From Geodermatophilus sp. (lineage in GTDB: Bacteria > Actinomycetota > Actinomycetes > Mycobacteriales > Geodermatophilaceae), in contig DASQXT010000457.1 of the NCBI GenBank assembly GCA_035639575.1, forward strand, positions 1 through 44,574: 44,574 bases of DNA, in the 5' to 3' direction. The position numbers and the translations under genes are program-made. Below, in pieces: positions 24,227 to 44,574 of the stretch. The notes under the pieces are model-generated. The model did not search any database. It had not been told where the DNA came from and saw nothing but the letters and a program-made list of their open reading frames with translations. Numbering within the stretch: the first letter of the stretch is position 1; the number at the start of each line of letters is the position of its first letter.

Positions 24227-24231
24227 CTCTT

Positions 24232-26212: not shown

Positions 26213-26488
26213 CTACGTCCGGTCGAGCAGGCGGGGCAGCGAGTCGAACAGGGACTGGGTGAAGCTGACCAGCTCGGAGAGCACCCAGTTGCCCGTGACC
26301 AGCAGCGCGATCGCGACCGCGATGACCTTCGGCACGAAGGACAGGGTCGGCTCCTGGATCTGCGTCGCCGCCTGGAACAGCGAGATGAGGAAGCCCACCA
26401 GCAGGGCGGTCAGCAGCACGGGAGCGGCGACCTTGGCGGCGACCAGCATCGTCTGGACGGCGATCTCGGTGACGTCGGCGTCGCTCAC
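26213..26488 (-). CDS. fliQ: Flagellar export protein FliQ
   Basis: SLFQAATQIQEPTLSFVPK motif. Confidence 0.95.
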   Translation of the reverse strand: MSDADVTEIAVQTMLVAAKVAAPVLLTALLVGFLISLFQAATQIQEPTLSFVPKVIAVAIALLVTGNWVLSELVSFTQSLFDSLPRLLDRT

Positions 26489-26565
26489 GACAACTCCTCG
26501 CTGGCGCTCGTCGTGGCCGTTCGCGGCGCTGCTGTGCTCATCGATGAGCTCGCGAGCTCGCTCAT
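26485..26565 (-). repeat. MIRU-like intercistronic module 1 (fliP/fliQ); mini-ORF MSELASSSMSTAAPRTATTSASEELS
   Basis: 81 nt. Its ATG overlaps the fliP TGA and its TGA overlaps the fliQ GTG. Ends are shared with four other copies. Confidence 0.9.
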
Positions 26566-27398
26566 CCGTAGCTCCCCACCAGCGCCGTCGTGATCAGCGC
26601 CCAGCCGTCGACCACCACGAACAGCAGCAGCTTGAACGGCAGGGAGACGATCACCGGCGGCACCATCATCATGCCCATCGACATGAGCGCGGCGCTGACC
26701 AGCATGTCCAGCACCAGGAACGGGATGAAGACGACCAGGCCGATGATGAACGCGCTCTTGAGCTCGGAGAGCACGAACGCCGGCACCAGCGTCGTCATGC
26801 TGACGTCCGCGGCGTCGGTCGGGGCCTCCTCGCCGGAGAGCCCGACCATCAGCGACAGCTCGTCCTCGCGGGTGTTGTCCAGCAGGAACTCGCGCAGCGG
26901 GACGACGCCGGTGTCGTAGGCCTGCGACACCGTCATGGTGCCGTTGAGGTAGGGCTGGACGGCGGTCTCGTTGATGTCGGAGAACACCGGGCCCATGACG
27001 AACAGCGTGAGGAACAGCGCGATGCCGGTGAGCACGGTGTTCGGCGGCGACGACTGCATGCCCAGCGCGTTCCGGGTCAGCGACAGCACCACGATGATCT
27101 TGGTGAACGACGTGGCCAGCAGCAGCACCGCCGGCGCCACCGAGAGCACGGTGATCGCGAGGATCAGCGTGATCGAGGTGCTGGGGCTGCCGCCGCCGAT
27201 CGAGATGTCCACGCCGCCGTCGACGGCGGGGACCACGGGGGCGGTCGGGGCCGTCGGCGCGACCGGTGGGGTGGGGGCGGCGGACGCCGGGCCGGCCAGC
27301 AGCGCGAGCACGACGCCGAGCAGCGCCGCGAGCAGCAGGACCAGCCCCACGCGCCGGGCGACCGGGACGCCCCGGACGGGAGCGGGGGAGGCGGTCAT
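26562..27398 (-). CDS. fliP: Flagellar export protein FliP
   Basis: TSFTKIIVVLSLTRNALG, PAFVLSELKSAF and LPFKLLLFVVVDGW motifs. TGATG overlap with fliO. Confidence 0.95.
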   Translation of the reverse strand: MTASPAPVRGVPVARRVGLVLLLAALLGVVLALLAGPASAAPTPPVAPTAPTAPVVPAVDGGVDISIGGGSPSTSITLILAITVLSVAPAVLLLATSFTKIIVVLSLTRNALGMQSSPPNTVLTGIALFLTLFVMGPVFSDINETAVQPYLNGTMTVSQAYDTGVVPLREFLLDNTREDELSLMVGLSGEEAPTDAADVSMTTLVPAFVLSELKSAFIIGLVVFIPFLVLDMLVSAALMSMGMMMVPPVIVSLPFKLLLFVVVDGWALITTALVGSYG

Positions 27399-27787
27399 CA
27401 GCGGCGGACCGTCCGCTCCCGCAGCTGGGAGACGAACGACGTCCACCCGTTGCGGTCGAACACCGAGCCGGCGAGAGCGCCGGGGCTGCCGGTCACGGCC
27501 GGCTGCGCGGTGGCCAGCCGGCGCTCGGCGATGGCCTCCTCGACGACGTCGCCGTCCACCTCGGCGAGCAGGGTGACCTGCTCCTCGGTGGAGCCGACGA
27601 CCAGCACGCGGTCGGCGATGCGGACGACGCTGACGCTGCTGGCCCGCCCCATGCGCTGCCGGGCGACGACCTCGATGAGGCCGTTGCCCTGGCCCAGGCC
27701 GCGCTTCTGCGCGAACCGCGCGGCGAACCAGAGGACGGCGCCGATGAAGACCAGCGAGAGCACCAGCCGGACGACCATCCAGGTCAT
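27398..27787 (-). CDS. fliO: Flagellar protein FliO
   Basis: N-terminal TM helix followed by IEVVARQRMG..SVSVVRIADRVLVVG. Position between fliN and fliP. Confidence 0.85.
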   Translation of the reverse strand: MTWMVVRLVLSLVFIGAVLWFAARFAQKRGLGQGNGLIEVVARQRMGRASSVSVVRIADRVLVVGSTEEQVTLLAEVDGDVVEEAIAERRLATAQPAVTGSPGALAGSVFDRNGWTSFVSQLRERTVRR

Positions 27788-28533
27788 GCCTGCTGACCCC
27801 CGATCTCGGTGGCGGCGGCGTCGGTGATGATCTCGCTGATCCGCAGGCCGAAGTCCTCGTCGACGACGACGACCTCGCCGCGGGCGATCAGCGTGCCGTT
27901 GACCAGCAGGTCCGCCGGGGCGCTGGCGGCGCGGTCGAGCTCGACCACCTCGCCGGGGTGCAGGGAGAGCAGCTCGCCGACGGTCATCCGGGTGCGGCCG
28001 ATCTCGACGGTGACCTCCATGGCCACGTGCCGCAGCAGGTCCAGGCTGCCGCGCTGGGTGCGCGCCTGGGGCAGCGTCACCTGCAGCGCGAACACCGCCT
28101 CGACCGTGCCGCCGGCACCCATCAGCGGGACGGCGACGAACATGCCCTTGTCCCGCAGCCCGTCCATCGCGGTGTCCGGGTCCTCGGTGCGCTCGGCGTC
28201 GACGCGCACCCGGCCCAGCGTGGCCGCGGCGGCCTCGAGGGCCGGGCGCAGCGCGGTGGCGACGTCCATCGGGCCGACGGGGGAGTTGGCGAGGGCGTCG
28301 ACGACCTCGGCGGAGAGGACGAGGACGACGTCCCCGCTCACCTCGCCGGCGAGCCGCGCCGCGACCGCGGCGGCGGCCGTGGCCGGCGCCAGGACGGCGT
28401 CCGGGTCGCTGACCGGCGCGCCGGGGACGAGCTCGGCCGTCGCCGGCACCAGCCCGGCCGCGGCCCGGGCGGCGGAGGCCACGACGGCGATCACGGTCTC
28501 GGATGCCTGCGAGTGGTCCACGGTGGCGGTCAT
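27784..28533 (-). CDS. fliN: Flagellar motor switch protein FliN with an N-terminal extension
   Basis: C-terminal SpoA domain: VTVEIGRT...IARGEVVVVDEDFGLRISEI. Confidence 0.9.
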   Translation of the reverse strand: MTATVDHSQASETVIAVVASAARAAAGLVPATAELVPGAPVSDPDAVLAPATAAAAVAARLAGEVSGDVVLVLSAEVVDALANSPVGPMDVATALRPALEAAAATLGRVRVDAERTEDPDTAMDGLRDKGMFVAVPLMGAGGTVEAVFALQVTLPQARTQRGSLDLLRHVAMEVTVEIGRTRMTVGELLSLHPGEVVELDRAASAPADLLVNGTLIARGEVVVVDEDFGLRISEIITDAAATEIGGQQA

Positions 28534-29483
28534 GCGGTGTCCTTCTGGGCTGGGTTCTGGGAGGTGGCCGGGGTGGGGACGATGGCGGCGGCCAGCCGGC
28601 GGCGGTGGTTGCTGGCGATCGCGTAGGCGAAGGTCACGTCGTTGGTGGTGACCTCGAGCGGCGCGTCCTGCGGGTGGCGCAGCAGCAGCACGTCACCGAC
28701 CGCGAGGGACAGCAGGTCCTCGGAGGAGACCTCGAGCGGGGTGAACCGCACGCCGACGTCCACCGGCACGTGGGTGAGCCGCTCGTTGAGGGCCTCGAAG
28801 GCGCGCCGCCGCTTGGCCTGGGCCGACTCCGACAGCTGCGGGGAGGCGGCGTTGTTCAGCGGCACCTGGAAGGAGGAGAACGGCAGCACCAGCGTGGCCT
28901 CGCCGGTGCGCCCGCCGATCCCGATGGTGAACGAGGCCACCATGACGGTGTCCGAGCCGGACGCGGCCTGGGCCAGCTGCGGGTTGTACTCGACCTCGCT
29001 GAGCTCGGGCTGCAGCTCGACGATGTGCGTGAAGGCGCCGGCGAACTCCTGCAGCAGCCGGGTGAGCAGGTGGTTGGTGATCGCCGTCTCCATGACCGTC
29101 ATCGGTCGGTCCGGCTGGTCCGCGGCACCCGAGCCGCCGAGCATGTGGTCGACGGCGGCCATCGCGATGTCGAGCGGGTAGGCGAGCACGCCCTTGCCGG
29201 CCAGCGGCTCGATCGTGAAGGTCGCGATGAAGCACGGGTCGGGCAGCGAGGCGACGTAGTCGTCGTAGGAGTGCTGCTCGATGCCGAGCAGTTCCAGTCG
29301 CGCGCCGGCCCGCAGCATCGTGGTGAGGACCGTCGTCGTCTGCCGGGCGAACGCCTCCTGGGCGATCTGCAGCACCCGTACGTGCTCGCGGGAGAGCTTG
29401 GTGGGGCGGCGGAAGTCGTAGGTGCGGGGTTCGCCGCGGCGGCTGCGCCCGGTGGGGGCGGTTCCGTTCTCGGGGCGGGTCAC
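28530..29483 (-). CDS. fliM: Flagellar motor switch protein FliM
   Basis: YDFRRPTKLSREHVR, VDHMLGG and LAVGDVL motifs. Confidence 0.93.
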   Translation of the reverse strand: MTRPENGTAPTGRSRRGEPRTYDFRRPTKLSREHVRVLQIAQEAFARQTTTVLTTMLRAGARLELLGIEQHSYDDYVASLPDPCFIATFTIEPLAGKGVLAYPLDIAMAAVDHMLGGSGAADQPDRPMTVMETAITNHLLTRLLQEFAGAFTHIVELQPELSEVEYNPQLAQAASGSDTVMVASFTIGIGGRTGEATLVLPFSSFQVPLNNAASPQLSESAQAKRRRAFEALNERLTHVPVDVGVRFTPLEVSSEDLLSLAVGDVLLLRHPQDAPLEVTTNDVTFAYAIASNHRRRLAAAIVPTPATSQNPAQKDTA

Positions 29484-29490
29484 GCCAGGT

Positions 29491-29518
29491 TCATCGGCGG
29501 GGAACGACTCCGCCCTGA
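29491..29518 (-). promoter_or_regulatory. Sigma-28 (FliA/WhiG)-type promoter for fliM, probably leaderless
   Basis: TCAG-N16-GCCGATGA, then 7 nt to the GTG start. Confidence 0.7.
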
Positions 29519-29601
29519 CCGGCGGCGCGGGGCGCTGCCGGTCAGGGCGGACGGGTGTGGCGGGTGGTGCCGGAGGGGCTCCCCGAGGGGCGCCCCGGGG
29601 G

Positions 29602-30081
29602 TCACTGGGTGACGTACTGGGTGAGGTAGACGTGCATGACCATCGGGACGCCGTCCTCGGTGTAGGCCTCGACGATCTTCTGCTCGAGGGCCTCCTTGAG
29701 CGCCTCGCGGGCGCCCACGACGTCGGCCGGCTGGGCCTGCGAGTAGGTCGAGATCAGCAGGTCGAGGGCCTTGGACCCGTCGACGCCGCCGCTGCCGTGC
29801 CCGCCGCCGGCGGCGGCCGCCGTGTACTCCAGCGTGATGCCGATCTTCAGGTAGCCGCCGCCGGCGAGGTTCACCGCGACCGGCTCCAGCGCGGTGTACC
29901 CGCCGTGCTCGGGCTCCGCGGCCGCCTCGGCCTCACCACTGCCGGCGAACAGGAAGAAGTACGCCGCACCGGCGATCGCGAGCACCGCGACCAGGCCGAC
30001 GACCAGCAGCTTCTTCCTGCCGCCACCCGTGGCCTCGTCGTCCTCGGGGGTCTCGTCCTTCTTGCTCTTCTTGTCAGCCAT
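29602..30081 (-). CDS. fliL: Flagellar basal body-associated protein FliL
   Basis: KKLL plus one TM helix, VNLAGGGYLKIG and C-terminal YLTQYVTQ. Confidence 0.88.
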   Translation of the reverse strand: MADKKSKKDETPEDDEATGGGRKKLLVVGLVAVLAIAGAAYFFLFAGSGEAEAAAEPEHGGYTALEPVAVNLAGGGYLKIGITLEYTAAAAGGGHGSGGVDGSKALDLLISTYSQAQPADVVGAREALKEALEQKIVEAYTEDGVPMVMHVYLTQYVTQ

Positions 30082-31000
30082 GGGTGTCCTCCTGGGGGGT
30101 GCCGGCGTCGGTGGTCCCGGCGGCGATGCCGGGGAGCAGTTCCTTGGCCTCGGCGGAGGCGTCGGACAGGACCACCACGTCGACGCGGCGGTTGACGGTG
30201 ATGGAGCTCGGGTCGCTCGCCGGGACCAGCGGCCGGGTGTCGGAGTAGCCGTTGGCGACCATCCGGGTCCCCGGGACGCCGTCGCCGGTCAGGTAGCGGA
30301 CGACCGTGGTCGCGCGGTAGGCCGACAGCTCCCAGTTCGAGGGCCACGGGCCGCCGGGGGTGACCGGCAGGTGGTTGGCGTGGCCCTCGATGCCGAGGTC
30401 GTTGGGCACGTCGAGCAGCGTGGGGGCGATCGCGTCGAGGATCTGCCGGCCCTCGGGCCGCAGCACCGCCTGCTCGGCGTCGAACAGGACCTGGTCGGCC
30501 ACGATGTGCACGACCAGCCCGCGCTCGTCGATCTCGAAGCGCGCCGCACCGGCGTGGCCGGCGGCGGCCAGCGCGGCCTCGATCCGCTCCTGCACGTCGG
30601 AGAGCTCCTGGTACTCGGCCTGCGCCTCGGCCGCGACCTGCTGGGCCTCGGCGAGCGCGGCCTGGGCCGCGGCGGCGTCGACCTCCGCCTCCTGGACCGT
30701 CTGGTCGGGGGCGATCGCCGAGGCGATGTCGATCGCGCCCGGCAGGCCGTCGAGCACCGAGCCCTCCGGCGTCGGCCCGGGCTGCACGGTGATCGGGCCG
30801 CCGAGGCTCTCGGACAGGCCCTGCGCGAGGGCGGCGAACTTCTCCTTGTCGACCTGGCTCATCGCGAAGAGCACCACGAACAGCACGAAGAGCAGCGTCA
30901 GCATGTCCGCGTAGGACACCATCCACCGCTCGTGGTTCTCGTGCTCCTCCTCCTCGTGCTTCTTCGCCCGGCGGCGGCCGCCGTGGCCGCCGGAGCTCAT
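30074..31000 (-). CDS. motB: Flagellar stator protein MotB
   Basis: ERWMVSYADMLTLL with the conserved Asp, and an OmpA-like domain (SNWELSAYRA, NRRVDV). Confidence 0.95.
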   Translation of the reverse strand: MSSGGHGGRRRAKKHEEEEHENHERWMVSYADMLTLLFVLFVVLFAMSQVDKEKFAALAQGLSESLGGPITVQPGPTPEGSVLDGLPGAIDIASAIAPDQTVQEAEVDAAAAQAALAEAQQVAAEAQAEYQELSDVQERIEAALAAAGHAGAARFEIDERGLVVHIVADQVLFDAEQAVLRPEGRQILDAIAPTLLDVPNDLGIEGHANHLPVTPGGPWPSNWELSAYRATTVVRYLTGDGVPGTRMVANGYSDTRPLVPASDPSSITVNRRVDVVVLSDASAEAKELLPGIAAGTTDAGTPQEDTHG

Positions 31001-31077
31001 CGGTCCTCCTCGCCGGCGCTCGTCGGACCGCTTCGCAGGCTCGCCCTACTCACGGGTGAGCTCGCACGCTCGCTCAC
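30997..31077 (-). repeat. MIRU-like intercistronic module 2 (motA/motB); mini-ORF MSERASSPVSRASLRSGPTSAGEEDR
   Basis: 81 nt. GTGA overlaps the motA stop and its TGA overlaps the motB ATG. Confidence 0.9.
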
Positions 31078-31844
31078 GCGGCCTCCTTGGCCAGCTCACT
31101 GGGCGGGATGAGGGAGGTCAGCTTGAGCCGGACGGCGCGCGGGCTGGTGCCGGCCTGGATCTCGGTGATGCCCTCGACCAGCAGCTCCATCTGCGCGGCC
31201 TGCAGCTCGCTGACCCGCAGGATCTTGGCGCCCATCGGCAGGAACCAGAAGTTGGCGGCCATGACGCCCCAGAGCGTGGCGACGAACGCCGCGGCGATCA
31301 TCGGGCCGAGGGACGACGGCTCGTTGAGATTGGCCATCACGTTCATCAGGCCGACGATGCAGCCGACGATGCCGATGGTCGGCGCGTAGCCGCCCATCGC
31401 GTTCATGAACTTGGCGGCGACCTTGTCCTCGGCCTTCTTGGCGGCGATCTCGCTCTCGAGGACGGCGCGCAGCTCCTCCGGGTCGGTGCCGTCGATGCCC
31501 ATCTGCAGGCCGCGCTTGAGGAACGGGTCCTCGATCGCCTTGACCTGCGCCTCGAGCGCGAGCAGGCCCTCCTTGCGGGCCTTCTCCGCCAGGCTGACCA
31601 GGGTCTGGATCTGGTCGGTGGCCGGCGGGACCTTGGCCGGCATCACGGCCATCTTGAACCAGCCGGGCAGCTTCTTGAGGTCGTTCATCGTCTGGCTGGC
31701 CATCGCCGCGCCGAAGGTGGCGACGATGACCAGCACGATGGCCGGCAGGGCCAGCAGCGACATCGGGTCGGAGCCCTCCAGGACCATGAAGACCAGGAGG
31801 GCGACCAGCGAGACGACGAACCCGATCAGGGTGGCGGGATCCAC
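31074..31844 (-). CDS. motA: Flagellar stator protein MotA
   Basis: ARKEGLLALE, GYAPTIGIVG and AFVATLWG motifs. Confidence 0.95.
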   Translation of the reverse strand: MDPATLIGFVVSLVALLVFMVLEGSDPMSLLALPAIVLVIVATFGAAMASQTMNDLKKLPGWFKMAVMPAKVPPATDQIQTLVSLAEKARKEGLLALEAQVKAIEDPFLKRGLQMGIDGTDPEELRAVLESEIAAKKAEDKVAAKFMNAMGGYAPTIGIVGCIVGLMNVMANLNEPSSLGPMIAAAFVATLWGVMAANFWFLPMGAKILRVSELQAAQMELLVEGITEIQAGTSPRAVRLKLTSLIPPSELAKEAA

Positions 31845-31848
31845 GGGC

Positions 31849-32133
31849 TCAGCGCTCCTCGCGGGCCGGGAAGGGGACGACGGCGGCGCTCGCCTCGGCC
31901 TGCTCCGGACGGGACGGCGAGCGGTAGGTGCCGCGGTCCATCTCGTAGGCGGTGGCCAGGATGCTGGCGCGGTACTCGCGGATCTCCACGAGGACCTCCT
32001 CCACGCTCTCCGAGACGACGTACTTGGTGCCGTCGACCAGGAACACGACGGTGTCGGGGTGGCCCTCGACCCGTTCGACGAGGTCGGGGTTGAGCGCGAA
32101 CCGCTCTCCGTTCAGGCGCGTCACACGGATCAC
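31849..32133 (-). CDS. flbD: Flagellar FlbD family protein
   Basis: IRVTRLNGERFALNPDLVERVEGHPDT motif. GAGGA SD before GTG 32133. Confidence 0.9.
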   Translation of the reverse strand: MIRVTRLNGERFALNPDLVERVEGHPDTVVFLVDGTKYVVSESVEEVLVEIREYRASILATAYEMDRGTYRSPSRPEQAEASAAVVPFPAREER

Positions 32134-32203
32134 GGCAGGTCCTCTTGCTCGATCGGGGAGGGGATGTCGGCGACCGCTCGGGCGGGCTGCCGGTCTGCAG
32201 TTG

Positions 32204-32231
32204 TCTTCGGCCCGGCGCGGGCGCGCCTTGA
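32204..32231 (-). promoter_or_regulatory. Sigma-28-type promoter for flbD-motAB-fliL
   Basis: TCAA-N16-GCCGAAGA. Confidence 0.7.
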
Positions 32232-32301
32232 GCCGAACAGGGCGCCTCACCCGCGCGGGTGAGCCATGTGACCTGCGAGGACGCCGGGGCTCCGGACGCC
32301 G

Positions 32302-32336
32302 ACGGCCCGGCCCCCGCGAACGAGAGGCCGGGCCGT
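32302..32336 (-). terminator. GC-rich hairpin downstream of flgE, possible terminator
   Basis: ACGGCCCGGCC / GGCCGGGCCGT arms, with no clear U-tract. Confidence 0.45.
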
Positions 32337-32354
32337 ACGGCGCCCGTGGAGGGC

Positions 32355-32410
32355 GGCCCTCCTGCAGGGACCCGCCGCGAGCCTGCGAGCGGTGGGGGGC
32401 AGGAGGGTCC
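32355..32410 (+). repeat. REP-like palindrome, copy B (after the flgE stop)
   Basis: GGCCCTCCTGC-AGGGA-CCCGCCGC-GAGCCTGCGA-GCGGTGGG-GG-GCAGGAGGGTCC. Confidence 0.88.
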
Positions 32411-32411
32411 T

Positions 32412-33638
32412 TTACCGCTTCAGGTTCACCAGGTCCTGCAGCACCTCGTCGGAGCTGGTGATGACGCGGCTGTTCGCCTGGAACCCGCGCTGGGCGACGA
32501 TGAGCCCGGTGAACTCCTCGGCCAGGTCGACGTTGGACATCTCCAGCGCGCCGGCGATGAGGGAGCCGCGGCCGCCACCGGAGGGCTCGCCGATGGCCGG
32601 CTGCCCGGAGTTGTCACCGACCCGGAAGGAGCTGTTGCCGGCCTTCGCCAGGCCGGCGGGGTTGGCGAAGGTGGCCAGGGCCAGCTTGCCGATCGGCTCG
32701 CGCAGGTTGTTCGAGTAGACGCCCATGACCGTGCCGTCGCCGCTGAGCGAGATCGACTGCAGGCTGCCCATCGCGTTGCCGTCCACGCGCGCCGGCGTCA
32801 GGCCGGACGGGCCGCCGAACTGGCGCAGGTCGGCCAGGTCGATGGTGATCTGGCCGGGCCAGCTGCCGGCCATGGAGGCGTTCGGCGTGATCTGGAAGGT
32901 CCGCGAGGCGGGCGGCAGGGTGCCCGCGACCGGGTCGAACGCCAGCGGGCCGGCGGTGCTGGCGAGGACGTTCTCCTTCTCGTCCCGGGCGACGACGTTC
33001 CAGGTGTTGTCGGCGGTCTTGGTGAACGACAGGCTGATCTGGTGCGCCGTCCCCAGGGCGTCGTACATGGTCATCTGGGTCTGCACGCCGGTGCCGGTGG
33101 CCGTCGTGCTGGACAGGTTGCCCACGACGGCGCCGTTGTCGGTCTCGGTGGGCTGCATGACGTCGCCGAACGGGACGGTCAGCTGCCGGATCGGGCCGTT
33201 GGTGTCGACGACGCCGTCGGTCGCCATCCAGCCCTGCAGCTGGGCGCCGTCCGGGGTGACGAGGTTGCCGGAGGCGTCGTAGCTGAACGAGCCGGCGCGG
33301 GTGTAGAGCTGCTCGTTGCCGGCCTGGGTGATGAAGAAGCCGTCGCCGCTGATCATGAAGTCGGTCGAGCGGCCGGTGTTCTGGGCCGAGCCCTGCTCGA
33401 AGTTCGTGGTGATGCCGGCGACCTTCACGCCGAGGCCGACCTGGGCCGGGTTGGTGCCACCGGCCTGCGCCGTCGGCGCCGAGCCGTTGCGCATGACCTG
33501 GGACAGCGTGTCCTCGAAGACCGTCGTGCTGCTCTTGTAGCCGACGGTGTTGACGTTGGCGATGTTGTTGCCGGTGACGTCGAGCTTGGTCTGGTGGGCG
33601 CGCAGACCGGCGATCGCGGAGTTCATGGAACGCAGCAC
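32412..33638 (-). CDS. flgE: Flagellar hook protein FlgE
   Basis: NNIANVNTVGYK, LYTRAG and LEMSNVDLAEEFTGLIVAQRGFQAN motifs. Confidence 0.95.
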   Translation of the reverse strand: MLRSMNSAIAGLRAHQTKLDVTGNNIANVNTVGYKSSTTVFEDTLSQVMRNGSAPTAQAGGTNPAQVGLGVKVAGITTNFEQGSAQNTGRSTDFMISGDGFFITQAGNEQLYTRAGSFSYDASGNLVTPDGAQLQGWMATDGVVDTNGPIRQLTVPFGDVMQPTETDNGAVVGNLSSTTATGTGVQTQMTMYDALGTAHQISLSFTKTADNTWNVVARDEKENVLASTAGPLAFDPVAGTLPPASRTFQITPNASMAGSWPGQITIDLADLRQFGGPSGLTPARVDGNAMGSLQSISLSGDGTVMGVYSNNLREPIGKLALATFANPAGLAKAGNSSFRVGDNSGQPAIGEPSGGGRGSLIAGALEMSNVDLAEEFTGLIVAQRGFQANSRVITSSDEVLQDLVNLKR

Positions 33639-33670
33639 GGGGTGCTCCTCTCAACAGGGTGATCAGGGGT

Positions 33671-33726
33671 GGCCCCCTTGCAGGGCCCCGCCGTGAGCGT
33701 GCGAACGGTGGGGGGCAAGGGGGTCC
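33671..33726 (+). repeat. REP-like palindrome, copy C (after the flgD stop)
   Basis: GGCCCCCTTGC-AGGGC-CCCGCCGT-GAGCGTGCGA-ACGGTGGG-GG-GCAAGGGGGTCC. Confidence 0.88.
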
Positions 33727-33730
33727 GTAC

Positions 33731-34153: not shown

Positions 34154-34169
34154 CGGTCGGTCGCTCCTC

Positions 34170-35510: not shown

Positions 35511-36472
35511 CGGAGGGTCTCTGCCTTGCTCATCACGCTGCGCACGTAGTCCTGGGTCTCGGAGTAGGGCGGGATGCCGCCGTAGCGGCGGACGGTGCCG
35601 GGCCCGGCGTTGTAGGCGGCCAGGCCCAGCTCGGTCGAGCCGAACTGCCGGGTCAGGTCGGCGAGGTAGCGGGCCGCTCCATCGACGGCCGAGGCCGGGT
35701 CGAACGGGTCGACGCCGAGACCCCGGGCGGTCGCGGGCATGAACTGCATGAGGCCCTGCGCGCCGGCGGGGGAGACCGCCGAGGCGTCGAAGCCGGACTC
35801 CTGCTGCGCCACCGCGGCGAGCAGCGCCGGGTCGACGCCGTGCCGGCTGCCGGCCCGGGTGAACAGGTCGGCGTACGGCACGCCGGACAGCGACGCGCCG
35901 CCCACCGTCCCGGGCACCGCGGACGCCGACCCGGCCGGCAGCACGCGGCGGATGACCGAGGGGGTGCCGACGTCCTGGACCTTGACGACCTCGCCCTCCT
36001 GCGGGGCGGCGATCATCTTGCCGTCGCCGACGTAGATGCCGACGTGGTCGATCCCGGGGCGGCCCGGGGAGTGGTCGAAGAACACCAGGTCGCCGGGGCG
36101 GGCGTCGGCCAGCGAGGCGACCGCGGTGCCGGCGGTGGCCTGCTGCGAGGCGGTGCGCGGCAGGTCGACGCCGAGGTTGCCGTAGACGAGCTTGGTGAAG
36201 CCGGAGCAGTCCAGGCCCTTGGCCGGGTCGGTGCCGCCCCACAGGTAGGGGACGCCGAGGTACTTGCGAGCCTCGGCGACGGCCCTGTCCTCGAGGGCAC
36301 TGCCCGACGAGGCGCCGCCGGTGGCGGTCGCCGCGGCGGTCGCGCCGGTGCCGGTGAGCCCGGCGGCGGCGGCGGCCGCGGTCCAGTCGGCGGAGGCCGC
36401 CGGGCGGGGCGCGACGAGGAAGCGGGCCTGGATCTCGCTGATCCGGGACTGCACCGCGGTCAGTCCGTCCAC
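35507..36472 (-). CDS. NlpC/P60 peptidase fused to an SLT lytic transglycosylase (flagellar peptidoglycan hydrolase)
   Basis: LGVPYLWGG..GLDCSG..HVGIY (NlpC/P60) and QQESGF..GAQGLMQFMP..AAYNAG..ETQDYV (SLT). Confidence 0.9.
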   Translation of the reverse strand: MDGLTAVQSRISEIQARFLVAPRPAASADWTAAAAAAGLTGTGATAAATATGGASSGSALEDRAVAEARKYLGVPYLWGGTDPAKGLDCSGFTKLVYGNLGVDLPRTASQQATAGTAVASLADARPGDLVFFDHSPGRPGIDHVGIYVGDGKMIAAPQEGEVVKVQDVGTPSVIRRVLPAGSASAVPGTVGGASLSGVPYADLFTRAGSRHGVDPALLAAVAQQESGFDASAVSPAGAQGLMQFMPATARGLGVDPFDPASAVDGAARYLADLTRQFGSTELGLAAYNAGPGTVRRYGGIPPYSETQDYVRSVMSKAETLR

Positions 36473-36915
36473 GCCGCCTCCCCGTCGGTGCGGGTGCGGC
36501 GGCCGGAGCGGCCGGTGACGAGGTCGTCCACGGTCCTCTCCTCGGCAGCCTGCTCGGCCAGTCGCACCGCCTGCAGGTGTCGTTCTCGCAGTCGTTCGAG
36601 GCCCTTGGTGCGCTGCGCGGCCGACGTCCAGGCCGCGCGGACCAGCTCGGCCTGCTCGGCGGACGCGGTCGCGAGCGCCCGGGCCGCGGCGGCGTCCTCG
36701 GCGGCCAGCCGGCCGAGCACCATGGCGGCGGCGAAGGCCCCGGGGGAGACCGGGCCCGTGGGGAGCACCGCGGCGACCGCGGCCTCGGCCTCGGTGGCGC
36801 GGCGGTCGGCGTCGGCGGCGGCACGCGCGGCCTCGGCCGCGGCCAGCGCGGCCGTGCGCTCCTGGGTGCGGCGCAGCTCCAGGACCGGCTGCAGCCGGAA
36901 GGCGGCCCGCTTCAC
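36460..36915 (-). CDS. fliJ: Flagellar export protein FliJ
   Basis: FRLQPVLELR N-terminus, coiled coil, E...DD C-terminus. Follows fliI. Confidence 0.85.
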   Translation of the reverse strand: MKRAAFRLQPVLELRRTQERTAALAAAEAARAAADADRRATEAEAAVAAVLPTGPVSPGAFAAAMVLGRLAAEDAAAARALATASAEQAELVRAAWTSAAQRTKGLERLRERHLQAVRLAEQAAEERTVDDLVTGRSGRRTRTDGEAAWTD

Positions 36916-38216
36916 GAGCGGACGATGCGGTTCAGCCAGGCCCAGGAGTCACCGGCGGGCGTGAGCTCGCCGGTGGGCTGCTGCAGGAACGCCTCGATGG
37001 CCGGCGCCAGCTGCCGGGCGCGGTCGACCAGCGGGTCGGTGCCGGCCTGGTAGGCGCCGATCTCGATGAGCTCCTTGACGTCGCGCAGCGCGCCCATGAG
37101 CCGGCGCACCTCGCGCGCGTCGGCCATCTGCGCCGGCGGGACGACGGCGGTGGCCACGCGGGAGATCGACTCGAGCACGTCGATCGCCGGGAAGTGGCCG
37201 GCGGTCGCGAGCTTGCGGGTGAGCACCACGTGGCCGTCGAGGATGGAGCGGGCGGTGTCGGCGATCGGCTCGTTGTGGTCGTCGCCGTCCACCAGCACGG
37301 TGTAGAGGCCGGTGATCGAGCCGACCGACGCCGTCCCGGCCTTCTCCAGCAGCTTGGGCATCATCGCGAAGACGCTCGGCGGGTAGCCGCGGGTCGCCGG
37401 GGGCTCGCCCGCCGACAGGCCGACCTCGCGCTGGGCCATCGCGGTGCGGGTGATCGAGTCCATCATCAGCAGCACGTCGCGGCCCTGGTCGCGGAAGCCC
37501 TCGGCGATGCGGGTGGCGACGAACGCCGCCTTCAGCCGCACCAGCGGCGGCTCGTCGGAGGTCGCGACGACGACGACGGTGCGCGCCATGCCGTCGGCGC
37601 CGAGGTTCTCCTCGAGGAACTCGCGCACCTCGCGACCACGCTCGCCGATCAGGCCGATGACCCGGACGTCGGCGTCGGTGCCGCGGGTGATCTGGGCCAG
37701 CAGCGTCGACTTGCCCACGCCGGAGCCGGCGAAGATGCCCAGCCGCTGGCCCTTGCCCAGGGGCACCATCGTGTCCAGCACCCGGACGCCGGAGGTCAGC
37801 GGCTCCTCGACGCGGGTGCGCGCCAGCGCGTGCGGGGTCTCGCTGGCCAGGTCGACCCACTCCAGGGACCGGTCCAGCGGCGGGCCGCCGTCGACCGGCC
37901 GGCCGAGGCCGTCGAGCACCCGGCCCAGCAGCGCCTCGCCGACCGGCACCTGCAGCGGCATGCCCGTGGCGCGGACCCGCGCGCCGGCGTGCACGCCGGA
38001 GAGCTCACCGAGCGGCATGCAGGTCAGCCGCTCCCGGGAGACGGCGACCACCTCGGCGAGCAGGCCGCCGCGCGGCGACGGGTTGATCTCCACCAGGTCG
38101 CCGACGGCGGCGACGACGCCCTCGACGGAGAGGGTCAGGCCCATCGCGCCGACGACCGAGCCGGTCACCTGCGGGCGGGCCGCCGCACGGGCGCGGTCGA
38201 GCAGGCCGAGGGTCAC
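36912..38216 (-). CDS. fliI: Flagellar export ATPase FliI
   Basis: AGSGVGKS, LIGERGREV, DSITR and GEPPATRGYPPS motifs. Confidence 0.96.
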   Translation of the reverse strand: MTLGLLDRARAAARPQVTGSVVGAMGLTLSVEGVVAAVGDLVEINPSPRGGLLAEVVAVSRERLTCMPLGELSGVHAGARVRATGMPLQVPVGEALLGRVLDGLGRPVDGGPPLDRSLEWVDLASETPHALARTRVEEPLTSGVRVLDTMVPLGKGQRLGIFAGSGVGKSTLLAQITRGTDADVRVIGLIGERGREVREFLEENLGADGMARTVVVVATSDEPPLVRLKAAFVATRIAEGFRDQGRDVLLMMDSITRTAMAQREVGLSAGEPPATRGYPPSVFAMMPKLLEKAGTASVGSITGLYTVLVDGDDHNEPIADTARSILDGHVVLTRKLATAGHFPAIDVLESISRVATAVVPPAQMADAREVRRLMGALRDVKELIEIGAYQAGTDPLVDRARQLAPAIEAFLQQPTGELTPAGDSWAWLNRIVRS

Positions 38217-38293
38217 GCGTCCTCCTCGCTGGCGCTCGTCGGCCGCACGACCCAGGGTGCTGTGCCTCCGCGTGAGCTCGCGAGCTCGCTCAC
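38213..38293 (-). repeat. MIRU-like intercistronic module 3 (fliH/fliI); mini-ORF MSELASSRGGTAPWVVRPTSASEEDA
   Basis: 81 nt. GTGA overlaps at both the fliH stop and the fliI start. Confidence 0.9.
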
Positions 38294-39132
38294 GGTGCCA
38301 GCACCGCCCGCACCCGCTCCAGCGCGGCGCCCAGCTGGGCGTCGACGCGGGTGGGACCGGTCTCGGCGACGGCGCCCGCCCGCTCGACGGAGAGGTCGCC
38401 GACCACCCGCACCGTGTCCGGCAGCTCGGCCAGGGCCTCGGCGGGCAGCTCGGCGAGGTCGTCGGGGTGCAGCCGGACGACGGTGGGCGCGTCGGCCGGG
38501 CACAGCGTCAGCGCCCGGCGGACGGCGTCCACCACGGGGGAGTCGGCCAGCGCGAGCTCGCGGCACAGCACGTCCTCGACGAGAGTCAGCACGATGGTGA
38601 TCACCGAGTCGCGCACGTCCTCGGCGACCGGCAGCGCAGCCTGCTCGAGCTGGGTGACCGCCGCGCCGAGCGCTGCGGTGGCCGAGACCATCCGCCGCTC
38701 CCAGCGGGCCTGGACCTCGGCCAGCCGAGCCTCGGCGGCCCGCTCGGCCTCGGCCACCACGGTCGCCGCGGCCGTGCAGCCCTCGGCGTGGCCGGCGGCG
38801 TACCCCTCCTGGCGGGCGTGCTCGCGCAGCCGGGCCAGCTCCTCGGCGTAGACGTCGCCGAGCCGGAACGACGTCCGGTTGGGCACCGGCGCGTCGGCCG
38901 CCCGGCGCACCGTCGTCCGCCGCTCGCCGGTCGGCTGCGGCGGGACCGGCACCGCGCGGGTGTACGGCGCACGCGGCGCGGCCTGCGCGGCGGTGCCGCC
39001 GCGCAGCAGCGCCGACTCCCGCGTGGACCGCTCAGGCGATGTCCGACGGCCTGACTGCGCGCCCCGGTCCGCTCCTCGCTCGCTGGCGCTCGCTGCGATG
39101 CTCCCGCGGCTGACGTCAGGCGACGAACTCAT
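38290..39132 (-). CDS. fliH: Flagellar assembly protein FliH
   Basis: AxxxG(xxxG) repeat ARQEGYAAGHAEG and VRLHPDD motif. Position between fliG and fliI. Start taken as ATG 39132. Confidence 0.88.
   Translation of the reverse strand: MSSSPDVSRGSIAASASERGADRGAQSGRRTSPERSTRESALLRGGTAAQAAPRAPYTRAVPVPPQPTGERRTTVRRAADAPVPNRTSFRLGDVYAEELARLREHARQEGYAAGHAEGCTAAATVVAEAERAAEARLAEVQARWERRMVSATAALGAAVTQLEQAALPVAEDVRDSVITIVLTLVEDVLCRELALADSPVVDAVRRALTLCPADAPTVVRLHPDDLAELPAEALAELPDTVRVVGDLSVERAGAVAETGPTRVDAQLGAALERVRAVLAP
39032..39123 (-). repeat. Putative 84-nt in-frame insert in the fliH 5' region, related to the intercistronic modules
   Basis: TCGCCTGA direct repeats at 39116-39123 and 39032-39039, enclosing GCGAGCGCCAGCGAGCGAGGAG. 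Confidence 0.6.
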
Positions 39133-40201
39133 CGTCACCGCCGCGCGAGATGGTCAGCACGCCCTGCTCCTCGAGGGTGCGGATGACGCCGACGACCTTG
39201 GCCTGCGCCTCCTCGACCGTGCGGGTGCGGACCGGGCCGAGCAGCTCGATCTCCTCCGCGAGGTTCTCGGCGGCACGCTCGGAGAGGTTCCGGACCACCT
39301 TGTCGCGGACATCGGGGCGCACGCCCTTGAGCGCGGTGGCCAGGTCGTTGGCCTCCACCTCGCGCAGCACCAGCTGCAGGGAGCGGTCGTCGATCGTGAC
39401 GATGTCCTCGAAGACGAACATCTGCGCGCGGACCTGCTCGGCCAGCTCCGGGTCGGTGCTGTCGAGCCACTCGAGGATCGAGCGCTCGGTCGGCCGCGGC
39501 GAGCGGTTGATGATCTCGACGAGGGTCTCGACGCCGCCGACGGTGCTCATGTCCTGGTGGGCGAGCAGCGACCCCATCCGGCGGCCGAGCTCCTCCTCGA
39601 CCAGGCGCACCATCTCCGGGGAGGTGCGGTCCATGGTCGCGATGCGGTGTGCGACGGCGGCCTGCTGCTCCGGCGCGAACCCGGAGAGGACCTCGGCCGA
39701 CTGGGCGGCGGTCAGGTGGGCGAGCACCAGCGCGATGACCTGCGGGTGCTCGTCCTTGAGGAAGGTGACCAGCTGGCGGACGTCGGCGTTGCGCAGCGAG
39801 GCGAAGGGCACCTCGGTGTAGACGACGTTGAGCCGGGACAGGATGCCGTCGGCCTTGTCCTCGCCGAGGCCGGCCGCGAGGATCTCGCGTGCGAACTCGA
39901 CGCCGCCGCGCCCCACGAACCGCTGGGCGGTCATGAGGTCGTGGAACTCCTCCAGGACGCCGTCGACGTCGTCGGGCTCGACCGAGCCGAGCTTCATCAG
40001 CTCGCGGGTCACCATCTCGACCTCGCGCGGGCGCATCTTGGCCAGCAGCGCGCCGGCCTCCTCCTTGGACAGCTGCGCGATGAACACCGCGGCCTTGCGC
40101 AGGCCCGGCAGCTCCCTGCGCTCCCGCACCGCGGGGAGGACGGCGGTCTGCGCGGCCGCGGGGGCCATGCCGACCATCTGCTCGACGGACGCCAGGGTCA
40201 C
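39116..40201 (-). CDS. fliG: Flagellar motor switch protein FliG
   Basis: KAAVF, EHPQVIALVLAHL, MFVFED and ALKG motifs. Confidence 0.95.
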   Translation of the reverse strand: MTLASVEQMVGMAPAAAQTAVLPAVRERRELPGLRKAAVFIAQLSKEEAGALLAKMRPREVEMVTRELMKLGSVEPDDVDGVLEEFHDLMTAQRFVGRGGVEFAREILAAGLGEDKADGILSRLNVVYTEVPFASLRNADVRQLVTFLKDEHPQVIALVLAHLTAAQSAEVLSGFAPEQQAAVAHRIATMDRTSPEMVRLVEEELGRRMGSLLAHQDMSTVGGVETLVEIINRSPRPTERSILEWLDSTDPELAEQVRAQMFVFEDIVTIDDRSLQLVLREVEANDLATALKGVRPDVRDKVVRNLSERAAENLAEEIELLGPVRTRTVEEAQAKVVGVIRTLEEQGVLTISRGGDDEFVA

Positions 40202-41793
40202 GACTTCACACCGCTCTCGCTCAGCCAGCCGCGCAGCATGGCGGCCACCTCATCCGGCTTCTCACTGACCATCGTGGAGATCTCGCCGCGGACCCGGGCC
40301 CGCTCGGCGGCCTCCAGCTCGCGGGTGGCGTCGTCGACGGCCGGCATGGCCCGCGTGCTCTCGATGCGGATCCGGTCGAGCTCGGCCATCACGTCGTCGG
40401 CGAGCTCCAGCGCCTCGTAGTCCTCCTCCTCGTCGTCCTGCTTGCGCCGCGAGCGCAGCCAGACGACGAGGACGAGCAGGGCGATGCCCAGGGCGATGCC
40501 GCCGGTGCGGATCAGCGACCACATCTGGGCCTGCTTCTCGGCCTCCTGGGCGGCCTGGAGCTCGGCGGCGGCGGCGTCGGCGGCGGTCGTGTCGAAGGCC
40601 ATGGAGGCGACGGTGATGTCGTCCCCGCGGGCGACGTCCAGGCCCACGGCGTTGCCGACGAGCTGCTGGATCTGCGCCTGGTTCAGGTTGCCGGCGACGG
40701 TGTCGTCCATGACGACGGAGACGGTGAGCCGGTTGATCCGCCCGGGCGCGCCCTCGACGGTCTCCGTCGTCGTGCCGACGGCGTTGTTCGCGGTCGTGGA
40801 CTCCTTGTTGTACGTGGAGTCCCCGGTGCCGGCCCCGGCGTCGGCCTGGTTCTCCGGGCCGAGGATGCCGCCGACCGCGGCGCCGTTGCCGGTGTACTGC
40901 TCGGTCGTCGTGCTCTCCGAGATGGGCGGGGTGCCCTGCTCGTAGGTGTGCGTCTCCGAGGTGGTGCTCCGCTGGTCGAGGTCCACGTCGGCCCGGACCG
41001 ACACCTTGGCGCGGCCGGGGCCGAGGATGGGGTCGAGGACGGCCTGCGCGTTGGCGGCCAGCCGGTCCTCGTAGTCCTGCTCCAGCTGCGAGCGGGCGTC
41101 GCCGGCCGCGGTGGTCACGCCCTGGCCGGGCGCCGACAGCACCGTGCCGGTGGCGTCGGCGACGGTGACCTGGTCGGGGTCCATGCCCTCGATGCTCGAC
41201 GAGACCAGGTTGGTCACCGCCTGCACCTGGCCGCTGTCCAGGGTGGTGCCCGGCGCCAGGTCGAGCAGCACCGAGGCGGTGGGCTCGGCCTCGTCGGAGG
41301 CGAACACCTCCTCCTCGGGCAGGGCCACGTGGACGACGGCGGTGCGCACCCCCTCCAGCGCCTCCAGGGTGGCCGACAGCTCGTCCTGCAGGGCCCGCTG
41401 GTAGGTGACCTGCTGCTGGAACTCGCTGGTGGTGATGCCCTGCTCGTCGAGCAGCGCGTACCCGGTGTCGTTGCCCGCGGGCAGGCCCTTGCCGCTCATC
41501 GACAGCCGCAGGTCGTAGACCTGCTCGTTCGGGACCATGATCGTCCCGCCGCCGTCGGCGAGCTCGTAGGAGACGCCGGCCGCGTTGAGCTCGTCGACGA
41601 TCGCCGACGCGTCGGTCGACGCCAGGTTCGAGAACAGCGGGGCGTAGGTGGGGGCCGTGATCCACCGGTAGAAGAAGAACCCGCCGAGGACCAGCCCGAG
41701 ACCGAGCAGGCCGATGACGACCTTCTGGCCGAGGCTGATCGTGGAGAGCGCGGAGCGGATCCGCTCCAGCGGCCCGGCGAGGGCAGCAGGCAT
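40198..41793 (-). CDS. fliF: Flagellar MS-ring protein FliF
   Basis: Two TM helices, YAPLFSNL, TTSEFQQQVTYQRALQDEL and TASVLL motifs. Confidence 0.95.
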   Translation of the reverse strand: MPAALAGPLERIRSALSTISLGQKVVIGLLGLGLVLGGFFFYRWITAPTYAPLFSNLASTDASAIVDELNAAGVSYELADGGGTIMVPNEQVYDLRLSMSGKGLPAGNDTGYALLDEQGITTSEFQQQVTYQRALQDELSATLEALEGVRTAVVHVALPEEEVFASDEAEPTASVLLDLAPGTTLDSGQVQAVTNLVSSSIEGMDPDQVTVADATGTVLSAPGQGVTTAAGDARSQLEQDYEDRLAANAQAVLDPILGPGRAKVSVRADVDLDQRSTTSETHTYEQGTPPISESTTTEQYTGNGAAVGGILGPENQADAGAGTGDSTYNKESTTANNAVGTTTETVEGAPGRINRLTVSVVMDDTVAGNLNQAQIQQLVGNAVGLDVARGDDITVASMAFDTTAADAAAAELQAAQEAEKQAQMWSLIRTGGIALGIALLVLVVWLRSRRKQDDEEEDYEALELADDVMAELDRIRIESTRAMPAVDDATRELEAAERARVRGEISTMVSEKPDEVAAMLRGWLSESGVKS

Positions 41794-42122
41794 CAGACCG
41801 GCATCCTCATGATCTCGGTGAAGGCCTCGACGGCCTTGTTCTTGATGGTCACGACCATGTCGGTGGCGAGCTTGGCCTCGTTGGCCGCGATCATGTAGTC
41901 GTGCACGTCACGCAGGTCGCCGGTGGCGGCCTGGACGGCGAGGCCGTCGGAGGTCGACTGCTTGGCCTGCAGCTCCTCCAGCGAGGACACCAGGGCCGAG
42001 GCGAAGCCGTCGCCGCCGGCCGCGGTGGTCTGCGGAACGTCCGGAGTGGCCGCCGCGCCGGTGACCCCGGACAGGCCGGTGATCGCCGTGGGGAACGAGA
42101 TGCCGCCGATCGGCGAGGTCAT
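41793..42122 (-). CDS. fliE: Flagellar hook-basal body protein FliE
   Basis: DVHDYMIAANEA...KNKAVEAFTEIMRMPV. Start at ATG 42122. Confidence 0.93.
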   Translation of the reverse strand: MTSPIGGISFPTAITGLSGVTGAAATPDVPQTTAAGGDGFASALVSSLEELQAKQSTSDGLAVQAATGDLRDVHDYMIAANEAKLATDMVVTIKNKAVEAFTEIMRMPV

Positions 42123-42199
42123 GCCCCCTCCTCGCTGGCGCTCGTCGGGCGCATGCCCTGAGGTGCTCTGTTCATCCGTGTCCTCGCAAGCTCGGCCAC
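42119..42199 (-). repeat. MIRU-like intercistronic module 4 (flgC/fliE); mini-ORF MAELARTRMNRAPQGMRPTSASEEGA
   Basis: 81 nt. GTG lies 3 nt after the flgC stop and its TGA overlaps the fliE ATG. Confidence 0.88.
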
Positions 42200-42202
42200 C
42201 GA

Positions 42203-42607
42203 TCAGCCCTTCCCGAGCTGGAGTGCGGCCTGGTAGGCGGTGGTGGCCCGCTCGACGACGGCGAGGTTCGCCTGGTAGCCGCGCTGCGCCATGATCAGCT
42301 GGGTCATCTGGTCGCCCAGGTCGATGTCCGGGTACTTCACGTAGCCGTTGGCGTCGGCGAGCGGGTGGTCCGGCTCGTAGACCATCCGGCCCTCCGCGCT
42401 GCCGTACTCGGCCCGGGCCACGCGGACGCCGCCCTCGCCGGAGCCGTAGTCGACGGCCTGCGCCACGATCAGCCGCTCCTGGAACGCGTCCTGGTCGGTC
42501 GAGGTGACGTTGTTGATGTTGGCGATGTTGTCCGAGACGGCGTCCAGCCACTTGCGGTGGACGAGCAGCCCGGAGCCGGAGATGCCGAGCGAGTCGAAGG
42601 TGCTCAT
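42203..42607 (-). CDS. flgC: Flagellar rod protein FlgC
   Basis: DNIANIN, YEPDHPLADANGYVKYP and AQRGYQAN motifs. Confidence 0.95.
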   Translation of the reverse strand: MSTFDSLGISGSGLLVHRKWLDAVSDNIANINNVTSTDQDAFQERLIVAQAVDYGSGEGGVRVARAEYGSAEGRMVYEPDHPLADANGYVKYPDIDLGDQMTQLIMAQRGYQANLAVVERATTAYQAALQLGKG

Positions 42608-42684
42608 GCCCCCTCCTCGCTGGCGCCCGTCAGTGGCATGCGCACGGTGGCTCCGTTCATCGGTTCGCTCGCGAGCTCGCTCAC
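42604..42684 (-). repeat. MIRU-like intercistronic module 5 (flgB/flgC); mini-ORF MSELASEPMNGATVRMPLTGASEEGA
   Basis: 81 nt. GTG lies 2 nt after the flgB stop and its TGA overlaps the flgC ATG. Confidence 0.9.
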
Positions 42685-44449: not shown

Positions 44450-44574
44450 ACGCAGACGACGAACTCGACCACGGGCACGCTGACCCTGCTCGCGCAGGGC
44501 AGGGACGACCTGGTCAAGGACTTCGAGTCCCGGATCGCGGACTGGGACCTGCGCCTGGCCGCCCGCAAGGAGAC
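44441..44574 (+). other. Second, diverged fliD 3' fragment in inverted orientation
   Basis: ALTTQTTNSTTGTLTLLAQGRDDLVKDFESRIADWDLRLAARKE. It is an inverted copy of 44301-44434 with 13 mismatches in 134 nt (hand count). Confidence 0.8.

What the first reader, a model, noticed from the sequence alone, without database searches (positions are those of the whole stretch)
26485..42684. Five fixed-length 26-codon bridging mini-ORFs between flagellar genes (MIRU-like translational relay)
Seen: the fliP/fliQ (26485-26565), motA/motB (30997-31077), fliH/fliI (38213-38293), flgC/fliE (42119-42199) and flgB/flgC (42604-42684) junctions each hold exactly 81 nt on the mRNA strand with consensus RTGAGCGAGCTCGCGAGC-variable core-GACGAGCGCCAGCGAGGAG-N5-RTGA. 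All five are open for 26 codons: MSELASSSMSTAAPRTATTSASEELS, MSERASSPVSRASLRSGPTSAGEEDR, MSELASSRGGTAPWVVRPTSASEEDA, MAELARTRMNRAPQGMRPTSASEEGA and MSELASEPMNGATVRMPLTGASEEGA. Each stop overlaps the next gene's start (RTGA). Each start overlaps the upstream stop (3 copies) or follows it by 2-3 nt (2 copies). The conserved 3' end supplies the GAGGAG Shine-Dalgarno. The core differs strongly between copies but has no indel or stop. Established: mycobacterial MIRUs (for example the 77-bp units in senX3-regX3) have this stop/start-overlapping mini-ORF architecture, and the start-to-start period here is also 77 nt. Inference: this is a small element that inserts at RTGA-coupled junctions and preserves coupling, possibly co-opted to tune flagellar subunit stoichiometry or to make a micropeptide family. 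I know of no description of this in a flagellar cluster but cannot verify novelty.
Basis: partly seen in the sequence, partly recalled or inferred. Interest (0 to 1): 0.88.

Follow-up and report, generated by a model that had tools for sequence, protein, structure and literature searches.

The report
MIRU-like jumping repeat at start codons
The five mini-genes are copies of a 77-base hairpin repeat that sits on start codons all over this soil actinobacterium's genome, is missing from the same flagellar junctions in most close relatives, and likely survives because its tiny reading frame passes ribosomes on to the next gene, as proposed for the MIRU repeats of mycobacteria.

Summary
The five units belong to a genome-wide family of 60 full-length copies, found in front of ordinary housekeeping genes; 57 of 60 end on the start codon of a gene or of a tandem unit. 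In 33 congeners each junction is usually empty, and the sister genome lacks all five. Filled sites typically add 77 bp with RTGA at both ends, and tandem arrays occur. The family spans Geodermatophilaceae and several other families of the order. The peptide is unconstrained. What is constrained is three covarying hairpins and the reading frame: frame-breaking length variants sit behind an overlapping coding stop at 0 of 6 sites, against 20 of 28 for other variants (p=0.002). This supports a relay as the element's survival trick; translation itself is untested. It works like a MIRU, but the model does not detect the mycobacterial 77-bp units I examined, so I do not file it as one. No mobilising enzyme was found. 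The scan has reported the same layout before in other genomes.

The parts
26485..26565 (-). Repeat unit and 26-codon mini-ORF at fliP/fliQ; its ATG overlaps the fliP stop and its TGA overlaps the fliQ GTG
   Evidence: filled in 6 of 25 congeners with both genes in the fetched region
30997..31077 (-). Repeat unit and mini-ORF at motA/motB
   Evidence: full unit in 0 of 25 congeners; exact empty sites such as G048 and G018, and shorter 32-35 bp inserts in others
38213..38293 (-). Repeat unit and mini-ORF at fliH/fliI
   Evidence: 2 of 33 congeners carry shortened copies; contigs of two runs of one study skip exactly these 77 nt
42119..42199 (-). Repeat unit and mini-ORF at flgC/fliE; starts 3 nt after the flgC stop
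   Evidence: filled in 1 of 33 congeners
42604..42684 (-). Repeat unit and mini-ORF at flgB/flgC; starts 2 nt after the flgB stop
   Evidence: filled in 5 of 33 congeners
26544..26565 (-). Stem-loop 1 (unit nt 1-6 paired with 17-22), shown for the fliP/fliQ copy; it includes the 5' RTGA
   Evidence: covariation, (97% of cells paired; pair 5:18 is CG in 12 and GC in 12 of 25)
26486..26521 (-). Stem-loop 3 (unit nt 45-53 paired with 72-80, around a GA-rich inner hairpin), shown for the fliP/fliQ copy; its 3' arm holds the spacer and the downstream start codon
   Evidence: predicted pairing is only moderate in context
26494..26499 (-). GAGGAG Shine-Dalgarno-like hexamer 5 nt before the downstream start (unit nt 67-72), shown for the fliP/fliQ copy
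   Evidence: sequence; invariant in 25 of 25 aligned copies; ribosome binding is inferred

Best explanation
The five units are copies of a 77-bp hairpin repeat, dispersed genome-wide and present or absent at orthologous start codons with RTGA at both ends; it is likely a non-autonomous mobile element whose 26-codon frame likely relays ribosomes from the upstream stop to the downstream start, so that insertion is tolerated. Shown: copy number, placement on start codons, filled and empty sites, tandem arrays, three covarying stems, no amino-acid constraint, and absence of frame-breaking variants behind overlapping stops. Inferred: a ribosome terminating on the upstream TGA restarts on the unit's RTG, reads 26 throw-away codons, opens stem-loop 3, stops on the TGA that overlaps the next start, and restarts there with the unit's GAGGAG. 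Inferred and open: the hairpins are the recognition structure for an unidentified enzyme acting in trans. The flagellar operon is simply a junction-rich landing place.
For: Copy number and placement: 60 full-length copies; 57 of 60 end on the start of a coding ORF or of a tandem unit, and 54 of 60 have a co-oriented upstream gene; the upstream stop overlaps the 5' RTGA in 36 of 60, plus 4 tandem units. Neighbours: 38 of 40 downstream proteins scanned (40 of 49 non-window copies with a coding neighbour) have Pfam matches, for example alanine racemase, ParB, EPSP synthase and a tRNA synthetase; none is a transposase or a flagellar protein. Mobility: filled versus empty sites differ by 77 bp at fliP/fliQ, motA/motB and fliH/fliI; presence is scattered on the tree and the sister genome G048 is empty at all five; other junctions (fliF/fliG 7 of 33, fliN/fliO 2 of 25) are filled in relatives only. 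Frame: in this genome the period is 2 mod 3 in 50, 0 mod 3 (in frame with the next gene) in 10, and 1 mod 3 in 0 of 60. Across 158 family genomes, collapsed to 34 sites, frame-breaking variants lie behind an overlapping coding stop in 0 of 6, others in 20 of 28, Fisher p=0.002. Structure: 89.6% of cells paired against 79.5% shuffled, 0 of 500 shuffles as high, slid controls 21-43%. Peptide: synonymous/nonsynonymous 151/451 observed against 149/444 expected in 43 ungapped copies. Precedent: PMC12548453 and PMC3184786 (passages).
Against: There are no ribosome or protein data; the RNA runs were contigs and cannot show transcription or translation. The frame test was framed after seeing the data, rests on 6 frame-breaking sites, uses strict end patterns and a coding model trained on this genome, and one of its 34 sites comes from unpublished genome G482. 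Stop depletion is ambiguous: 2 observed against 10.4 expected under uniform mutation, but 2 copies against 3.8 under column resampling (P=0.27). 20 of 56 non-tandem copies have no overlapping coding stop, so not all are relays. The end tetramers differ at the purine in 10 of 50 RTGA/RTGA copies and none is ATGA/ATGA, so an exact target duplication is not shown. Single copies do not fold better than shuffles (z -1.64 to +1.25); stem 3 has mean pairing probability 0.39 and exceeds 0.5 in 19 of 46 copies. No enzyme was found. The window is enriched for copies: 5 against 1.0-1.7 expected (P 0.003-0.024, uncorrected for the window being picked for this).
Confidence: 0.75

Rival explanations
1. The open frame is incidental. 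The element is a mobile hairpin repeat that only needs to supply a ribosome-binding site and a start codon, and the next gene initiates afresh. The -4 geometry is inherited from the founder's length.
For: GAGGAG and the RTG are nearly invariant. 20 of 56 non-tandem copies are not behind an overlapping stop. Stop depletion is not significant under column resampling. Frame-breaking copies do exist (9 of 62 matches).
Against: Frame-breaking copies were found only where no coding stop overlaps the 5' end (0 of 6 against 20 of 28). Three-base length changes make up 36 of 62 variant matches. Diverged relatives in other families keep lengths that are multiples of three (69, 72, 75, 81, 84).
Confidence: 0.15
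2. The units were domesticated to tune flagellar subunit stoichiometry.
For: Five copies in one operon, more than the 1.0-1.7 expected. Some insertions are shared by several species (flgB/flgC, fliP/fliQ), and stem 3 covers the downstream start, so output could change.
Against: Each of the five junctions is empty in most congeners, and the sister genome (FliI 98.6% identical) is empty at all five. 55 of 60 copies lie on other contigs, before unrelated genes. Relatives carry it at different flagellar junctions.
Confidence: 0.05
3. The units encode a family of functional micropeptides.
For: A constant 26 codons with similar ends (MSELAS...TSASEE).
Against: The substitution spectrum is neutral, and third codon positions are no more variable than first or second (0.84 against 0.79 and 0.81). 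Orthologous copies differ at 15 synonymous and 72 nonsynonymous codons over 12 non-independent comparisons. The conserved ends coincide with hairpins. Compensated frameshifts change the peptide wholesale in C516 and C461.
Confidence: 0.03

Closest known systems
MIRU, mycobacterial interspersed repetitive units (Supply et al. 1997; not seen itself, known here through passages of PMC12548453, PMC3184786, PMC4128351 and PMC4213456)
   Same: 40-100 bp units in about 40-50 copies, with tetranucleotide direct repeats at filled sites, internal inverted repeats, and ORFs overlapping the adjacent genes (PMC3184786). Insertion at start codons with -4 coupling (PMC12548453). 77-bp units in tandem (PMC4213456). 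Units in a PPE-SVP-bearing genus of the same order have the same 81-nt RTGA-to-RTGA, 26-codon layout (L232, L239, L252).
   Different: Neither the covariance model nor the HMM detects those mycobacterial units (best E 2.8 and 4.2 on L232); only short GA-GC-loop-GC-GA and GAGGAG motifs are shared by eye. That these units are class I MIRUs is my recall and comes from no call. This family occurs in Geodermatophilaceae and other families, and in only 1 of 8 sampled genomes of that genus. A second repeat family in this genome shares a 25-nt module with the mycobacterial units (85 of 121 genomes) and is the better candidate for a true MIRU relative.
Bacterial MITEs and REP-type palindromic repeats (PMC3184786 passages; PMC3733652 searched for terms only)
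   Same: Short, non-coding for any enzyme, multicopy, hairpin-rich and intergenic, with patchy presence among relatives.
   Different: No clear terminal inverted repeats; strictly oriented and placed on start codons. No Y1/RAYT-type transposase was found in this 85%-complete genome. PMC3733652 has no occurrence of Geodermatophil-, Actinobacter-, MIRU or Mycobacter- in its main text.
Ribosome-delivering uORFs and bicistronic designs (PMC12548453 passage)
   Same: [quoted passage not shown]
   Different: Here the ORF is carried by a dispersed repeat that comes and goes between species, not by a gene-specific leader.

Membership tests
MIRU | Short (40-100 bp) intergenic unit in tens of dispersed copies | tested here: met
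   77-bp period, 60 full-length copies
MIRU | Filled and empty orthologous sites with a 4-nt direct repeat | tested here: met
   +77 bp with RTGA at both ends; the purine differs between ends in 10 of 50 copies
MIRU | Internal ORF overlapping the downstream start at -4, and often the upstream stop | tested here: met
   48 of 60 stop at -4; the upstream stop overlaps in 36 of 60
MIRU | Oriented with the flanking genes; tandem arrays | tested here: met
   (57 of 60 downstream, 54 of 60 upstream); arrays in C8, C268, C421, C99 and in relatives
MIRU | Sequence homology to the mycobacterial 77-bp units | tested here: not met
   CM and HMM give no significant match on 30 loci holding a mycobacterial repeat module, 3 of them full 81-nt units. 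The comparison set was not a curated MIRU set; the two original papers tried were not held
MIRU | Restricted to mycobacteria | tested here: not met
   10 of 11 other Geodermatophilaceae and 21 of 139 genomes of other families match
MIRU | Transcribed within the polycistronic mRNA and translated | not testable with these tools
   only metatranscriptome contigs were available
MITE / REP with cognate transposase | Terminal inverted repeats, or a cognate transposase gene flanked by the element | tested here: inconclusive
   No Y1_Tnp match. IS110-type (3), DUF559 (4), DUF222 (7) and reverse transcriptase (1) matches exist; by coordinates none adjoins a copy listed. The genome is 85% complete
Rfam structured RNA families | Match at gathering score | tested here: not met
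   0 matches in the window among 4227 families

The most novel reading that the evidence does not exclude
An order-wide, undescribed class of mobile element that finds start codons by base-pairing: both terminal RTGA copies are built into its stems (1:22 and 47:78 covary with the A/G of the start codon). It moves through a structured single-stranded intermediate using an unknown enzyme. By burying the ribosome-binding site and start codon in stem 3, it turns any gene it lands on into one that depends on upstream translation: a portable translational-coupling switch that rewires operons, including the flagellar one.
Probability: 0.15. Interest if true: 0.72.

Novelty: new variant of a known kind. 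Interest (0 to 1): 0.36.

Why it matters
The MIRU idea, that a repeat hides at start codons by carrying its own coupling ORF, is stated only as 'likely' in a 2025 review (PMC12548453, passage). This family supplies a comparative test of it (frame-breaking copies are missing behind overlapping stops) and natural filled/empty pairs in harmless soil actinobacteria, where coupling and mobility could be measured. It also warns annotators that these 26-codon ORFs and N-terminal extensions are repeat-derived. It does not reveal new flagellar biology.

Tried and rejected
Rfam at gathering score: 0 matches. Distant blastn of one copy against plasmids (28 records) and phages (13 records): none covers 80% of the query, best E 0.01, treated as chance. 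Folding single copies gave no common minimum-energy structure; the stems come from covariation only. G.T against A.C mismatches in the stems (35 against 13 in 46 copies) hint at the mRNA-sense strand, but transcription-linked C-to-T bias could give the same, so I did not use it as evidence. Search for a mobilising enzyme next to a copy: none. Splicing as the cause of the 77-nt skip in RNA-run contigs X15 and X16: rejected, because contig X15 carries 11 other letters in 271 and congeners have the same empty allele in DNA. Read depth from contigs was not used. Local spread within the operon: rejected, because the window copies are 67-78% alike while their best matches on other contigs are 75-85%. 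Control genomes offered no Mycobacterium among the 12 named. Model hits judged spurious or partial for lacking RTGA ends: L184 and L195; L204, L205, L206 (unpublished G246) and L208. Left out before counts: one copy cut by a contig end (C298) from the 60; copies with indels plus C516, C461 and C347 from the 43 ungapped; 2 of 35 congeners without a flgC match; 8 congeners whose fetched region lacked motA/motB, fliN/fliO and fliP/fliQ. Literature: ten searches (listings seen) showed no description of this family, or of MIRU-type units in Geodermatophilaceae or flagellar clusters; most subscription papers are not held. PMC2267715 and PMC10117815, passages only, did not help. The supplements of PMC4128351 gave only a head row.
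Full report
Observation. They form the top repeat family of the window, and the flanking genes are the named flagellar genes. The window is contig C457 of an 85%-complete, 74.7% GC genome. The closest named FliI relatives are Geodermatophilaceae at 79-88%, so I take the host to belong to that family (inference).

A genome-wide family. An HMM from the five copies, rebuilt once, gives 68 hits at E<1e-3 and none in the reversed genome; 60 are full length. With a simple gene caller built here, 57 of 60 end on the start of a coding ORF or a tandem unit, and 54 of 60 have a co-oriented upstream gene. The upstream stop overlaps the 5' RTGA in 36, and 4 more are inner tandem units. Of 40 downstream proteins scanned, out of 49 outside the window, 38 match Pfam families of general metabolism, replication and regulation. 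The window holds 5 copies against 1.0-1.7 expected from its junctions. That is a real but modest excess in a window chosen for it.

It comes and goes. I fetched the flagellar cluster of the 33 of 35 congeners with a flgC match. The unit is present at flgB/flgC in 5 of 33, flgC/fliE 1 of 33, fliH/fliI 2 of 33, motA/motB 0 of 25 and fliP/fliQ 6 of 25. It is also at fliF/fliG in 7 of 33 and fliN/fliO in 2 of 25, which are empty in the window. Empty sites are plain RTGA overlaps or short gaps, and filled ones typically add 77 bp with RTGA on both sides. On a tree of four flagellar genes presence is scattered, and the sister genome G048 is empty at all five junctions. Contigs of two runs from one study skip exactly 77 nt at fliH/fliI, which I read as another strain's empty allele. 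The purine of the two RTGA ends differs in 10 of 50 copies, so exact target duplication is not established.

Range. The exact 3' motif is in 23 of 24 congeners (one is unpublished G003) and in 0 of 16 genomes of other families. The covariance model R1 reaches further. It finds 10 of 11 other Geodermatophilaceae and 21 of 139 genomes of other families, and 14 of 151 in the family that holds a PPE-SVP-bearing genus (one weak hit is unpublished G246). Only 30 candidates per genome were scored. By eye, 14 of 19 and 20 of 28 inspected distant loci have RTGA at both model ends and a length that is a multiple of three.

What is conserved. Not the peptide: changes split 151 synonymous and 451 nonsynonymous against 149 and 444 expected (43 copies), and orthologous copies show 15 against 72 codons. 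Structure is: the top covarying column pairs define stems 1-6:17-22, 37-38:42-43 and 45-53:72-80. On 25 copies, 89.6% of cells pair, 11 pairs show two-sided changes, and 0 of 500 shuffles reach this; the structure was derived from overlapping data and the copies are related. Stem 3 covers the spacer and the start codon, and the GAGGAG lies in its 3' arm, but predicted pairing in context is moderate and single copies fold no better than shuffles.

The frame. In this genome the period is 2 mod 3 in 50 copies (48 of them stop at -4), 0 mod 3 in 10 (in frame with the next gene) and never 1 mod 3. Family-wide searches for length variants found 62 matches: 36 of plus or minus 3, 17 that would fuse and 9 that break frame. 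So frame-breaking copies exist, which counts against a strict rule. Collapsed by array and downstream protein to 34 sites, none of 6 frame-breaking sites lies behind an overlapping coding stop, against 20 of 28 others (p=0.002; post hoc, small, one site from unpublished G482). This is what selection would leave if ribosomes from the upstream gene enter the mini-ORF. Stop depletion alone is inconclusive.

Mechanism. Most likely a non-autonomous element inserts at RTG-A start codons and restores what it displaces, a ribosome-binding site and a start; where it lands on a stop/start overlap, its open frame relays ribosomes. Insertion pattern, structure and frame bias are shown; translation, the effect on output and the enzyme are inferred or unknown (searches found no candidate beside a copy).

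Comparison. A review states that MIRUs insert at start codons and couple at -4, likely minimising harm (PMC12548453, passage). Another gives 40-100 bp, 40-50 copies, 4-nt direct repeats and ORFs overlapping neighbours (PMC3184786, passage). A 77-nt MIRU forms a whole 5' UTR in M. bovis (PMC4128351, passage). All architectural features are met here. Sequence homology is not: mycobacterial 81-nt units with the same layout score E 2.8 at best. A second family in this genome shares a 25-nt module with them. Calling those units class I MIRUs is recall. Ten literature searches showed no description of this family (listed under Tried and rejected). Earlier notes of this scan describe the same layout in at least 23 other genomes; I did not test them.

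Verdict. A real, apparently undescribed, order-wide repeat family that works like a MIRU; it is not a flagellar mechanism and not a micropeptide family. Interest 0.36.

Noticed in passing
window 39032-39115 (-), fliG/fliH junction: An 84-nt insert of a second repeat family sits between two TCGCCTGA direct repeats right after the fliG stop. The same junction holds different inserts, or none, in congeners, so it is a hotspot.
   Followed up: partly
G000 contigs C289, C439, C547, C369, C303, C430, C477 and others; fliP/fliQ in L117, L120, L122: A second, modular repeat family (30 motif-pair hits) also forms RTGA-to-RTGA bridging ORFs, with periods 83, 107 and 161 at fliP/fliQ, all 2 mod 3. One of its modules is in 85 of 121 genomes of the PPE-SVP-bearing genus; it is likely the closer MIRU relative.
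   Followed up: partly
window 24171-24228, 32354-32411, 33670-33727: A REP-like palindrome family (179 hits genome-wide at E<1e-3) shares the GAGC-NN-GCGA loop with stem-loop 1 of the element; the families may share a mobilising enzyme (untested).
   Followed up: partly
motA/motB in L112, L114, L115, L120, L122, L132; fliH/fliI in L121: Short inserts of 20, 32 and 35 bp, some looking like remnants of the unit, also keep the 2 mod 3 period.
   Followed up: no
G000, for example C99:2902, C117:9, C268:1991, C15:1963: Ten copies with period 0 mod 3 are in frame with the next ORF and could add about 25 repeat-derived residues to its N-terminus.
   Followed up: no
window 44301-44574: A 136-nt fold-back (90% complementary arms, 2 nt apart) ends the contig upstream of fliS; likely an assembly artefact.
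   Followed up: no
window 18562-19485 (-): A gene with an AbiEi_4 N-terminal domain and a weak coding score lies downstream of the flagellar cluster.
   Followed up: no
G000 genome-wide: 94 junctions have a mini-ORF running from an upstream RTGA stop to a -4 overlap with the next gene; only 23 were assigned to this family, so bridging ORFs are common beyond it, some by chance.
   Followed up: no
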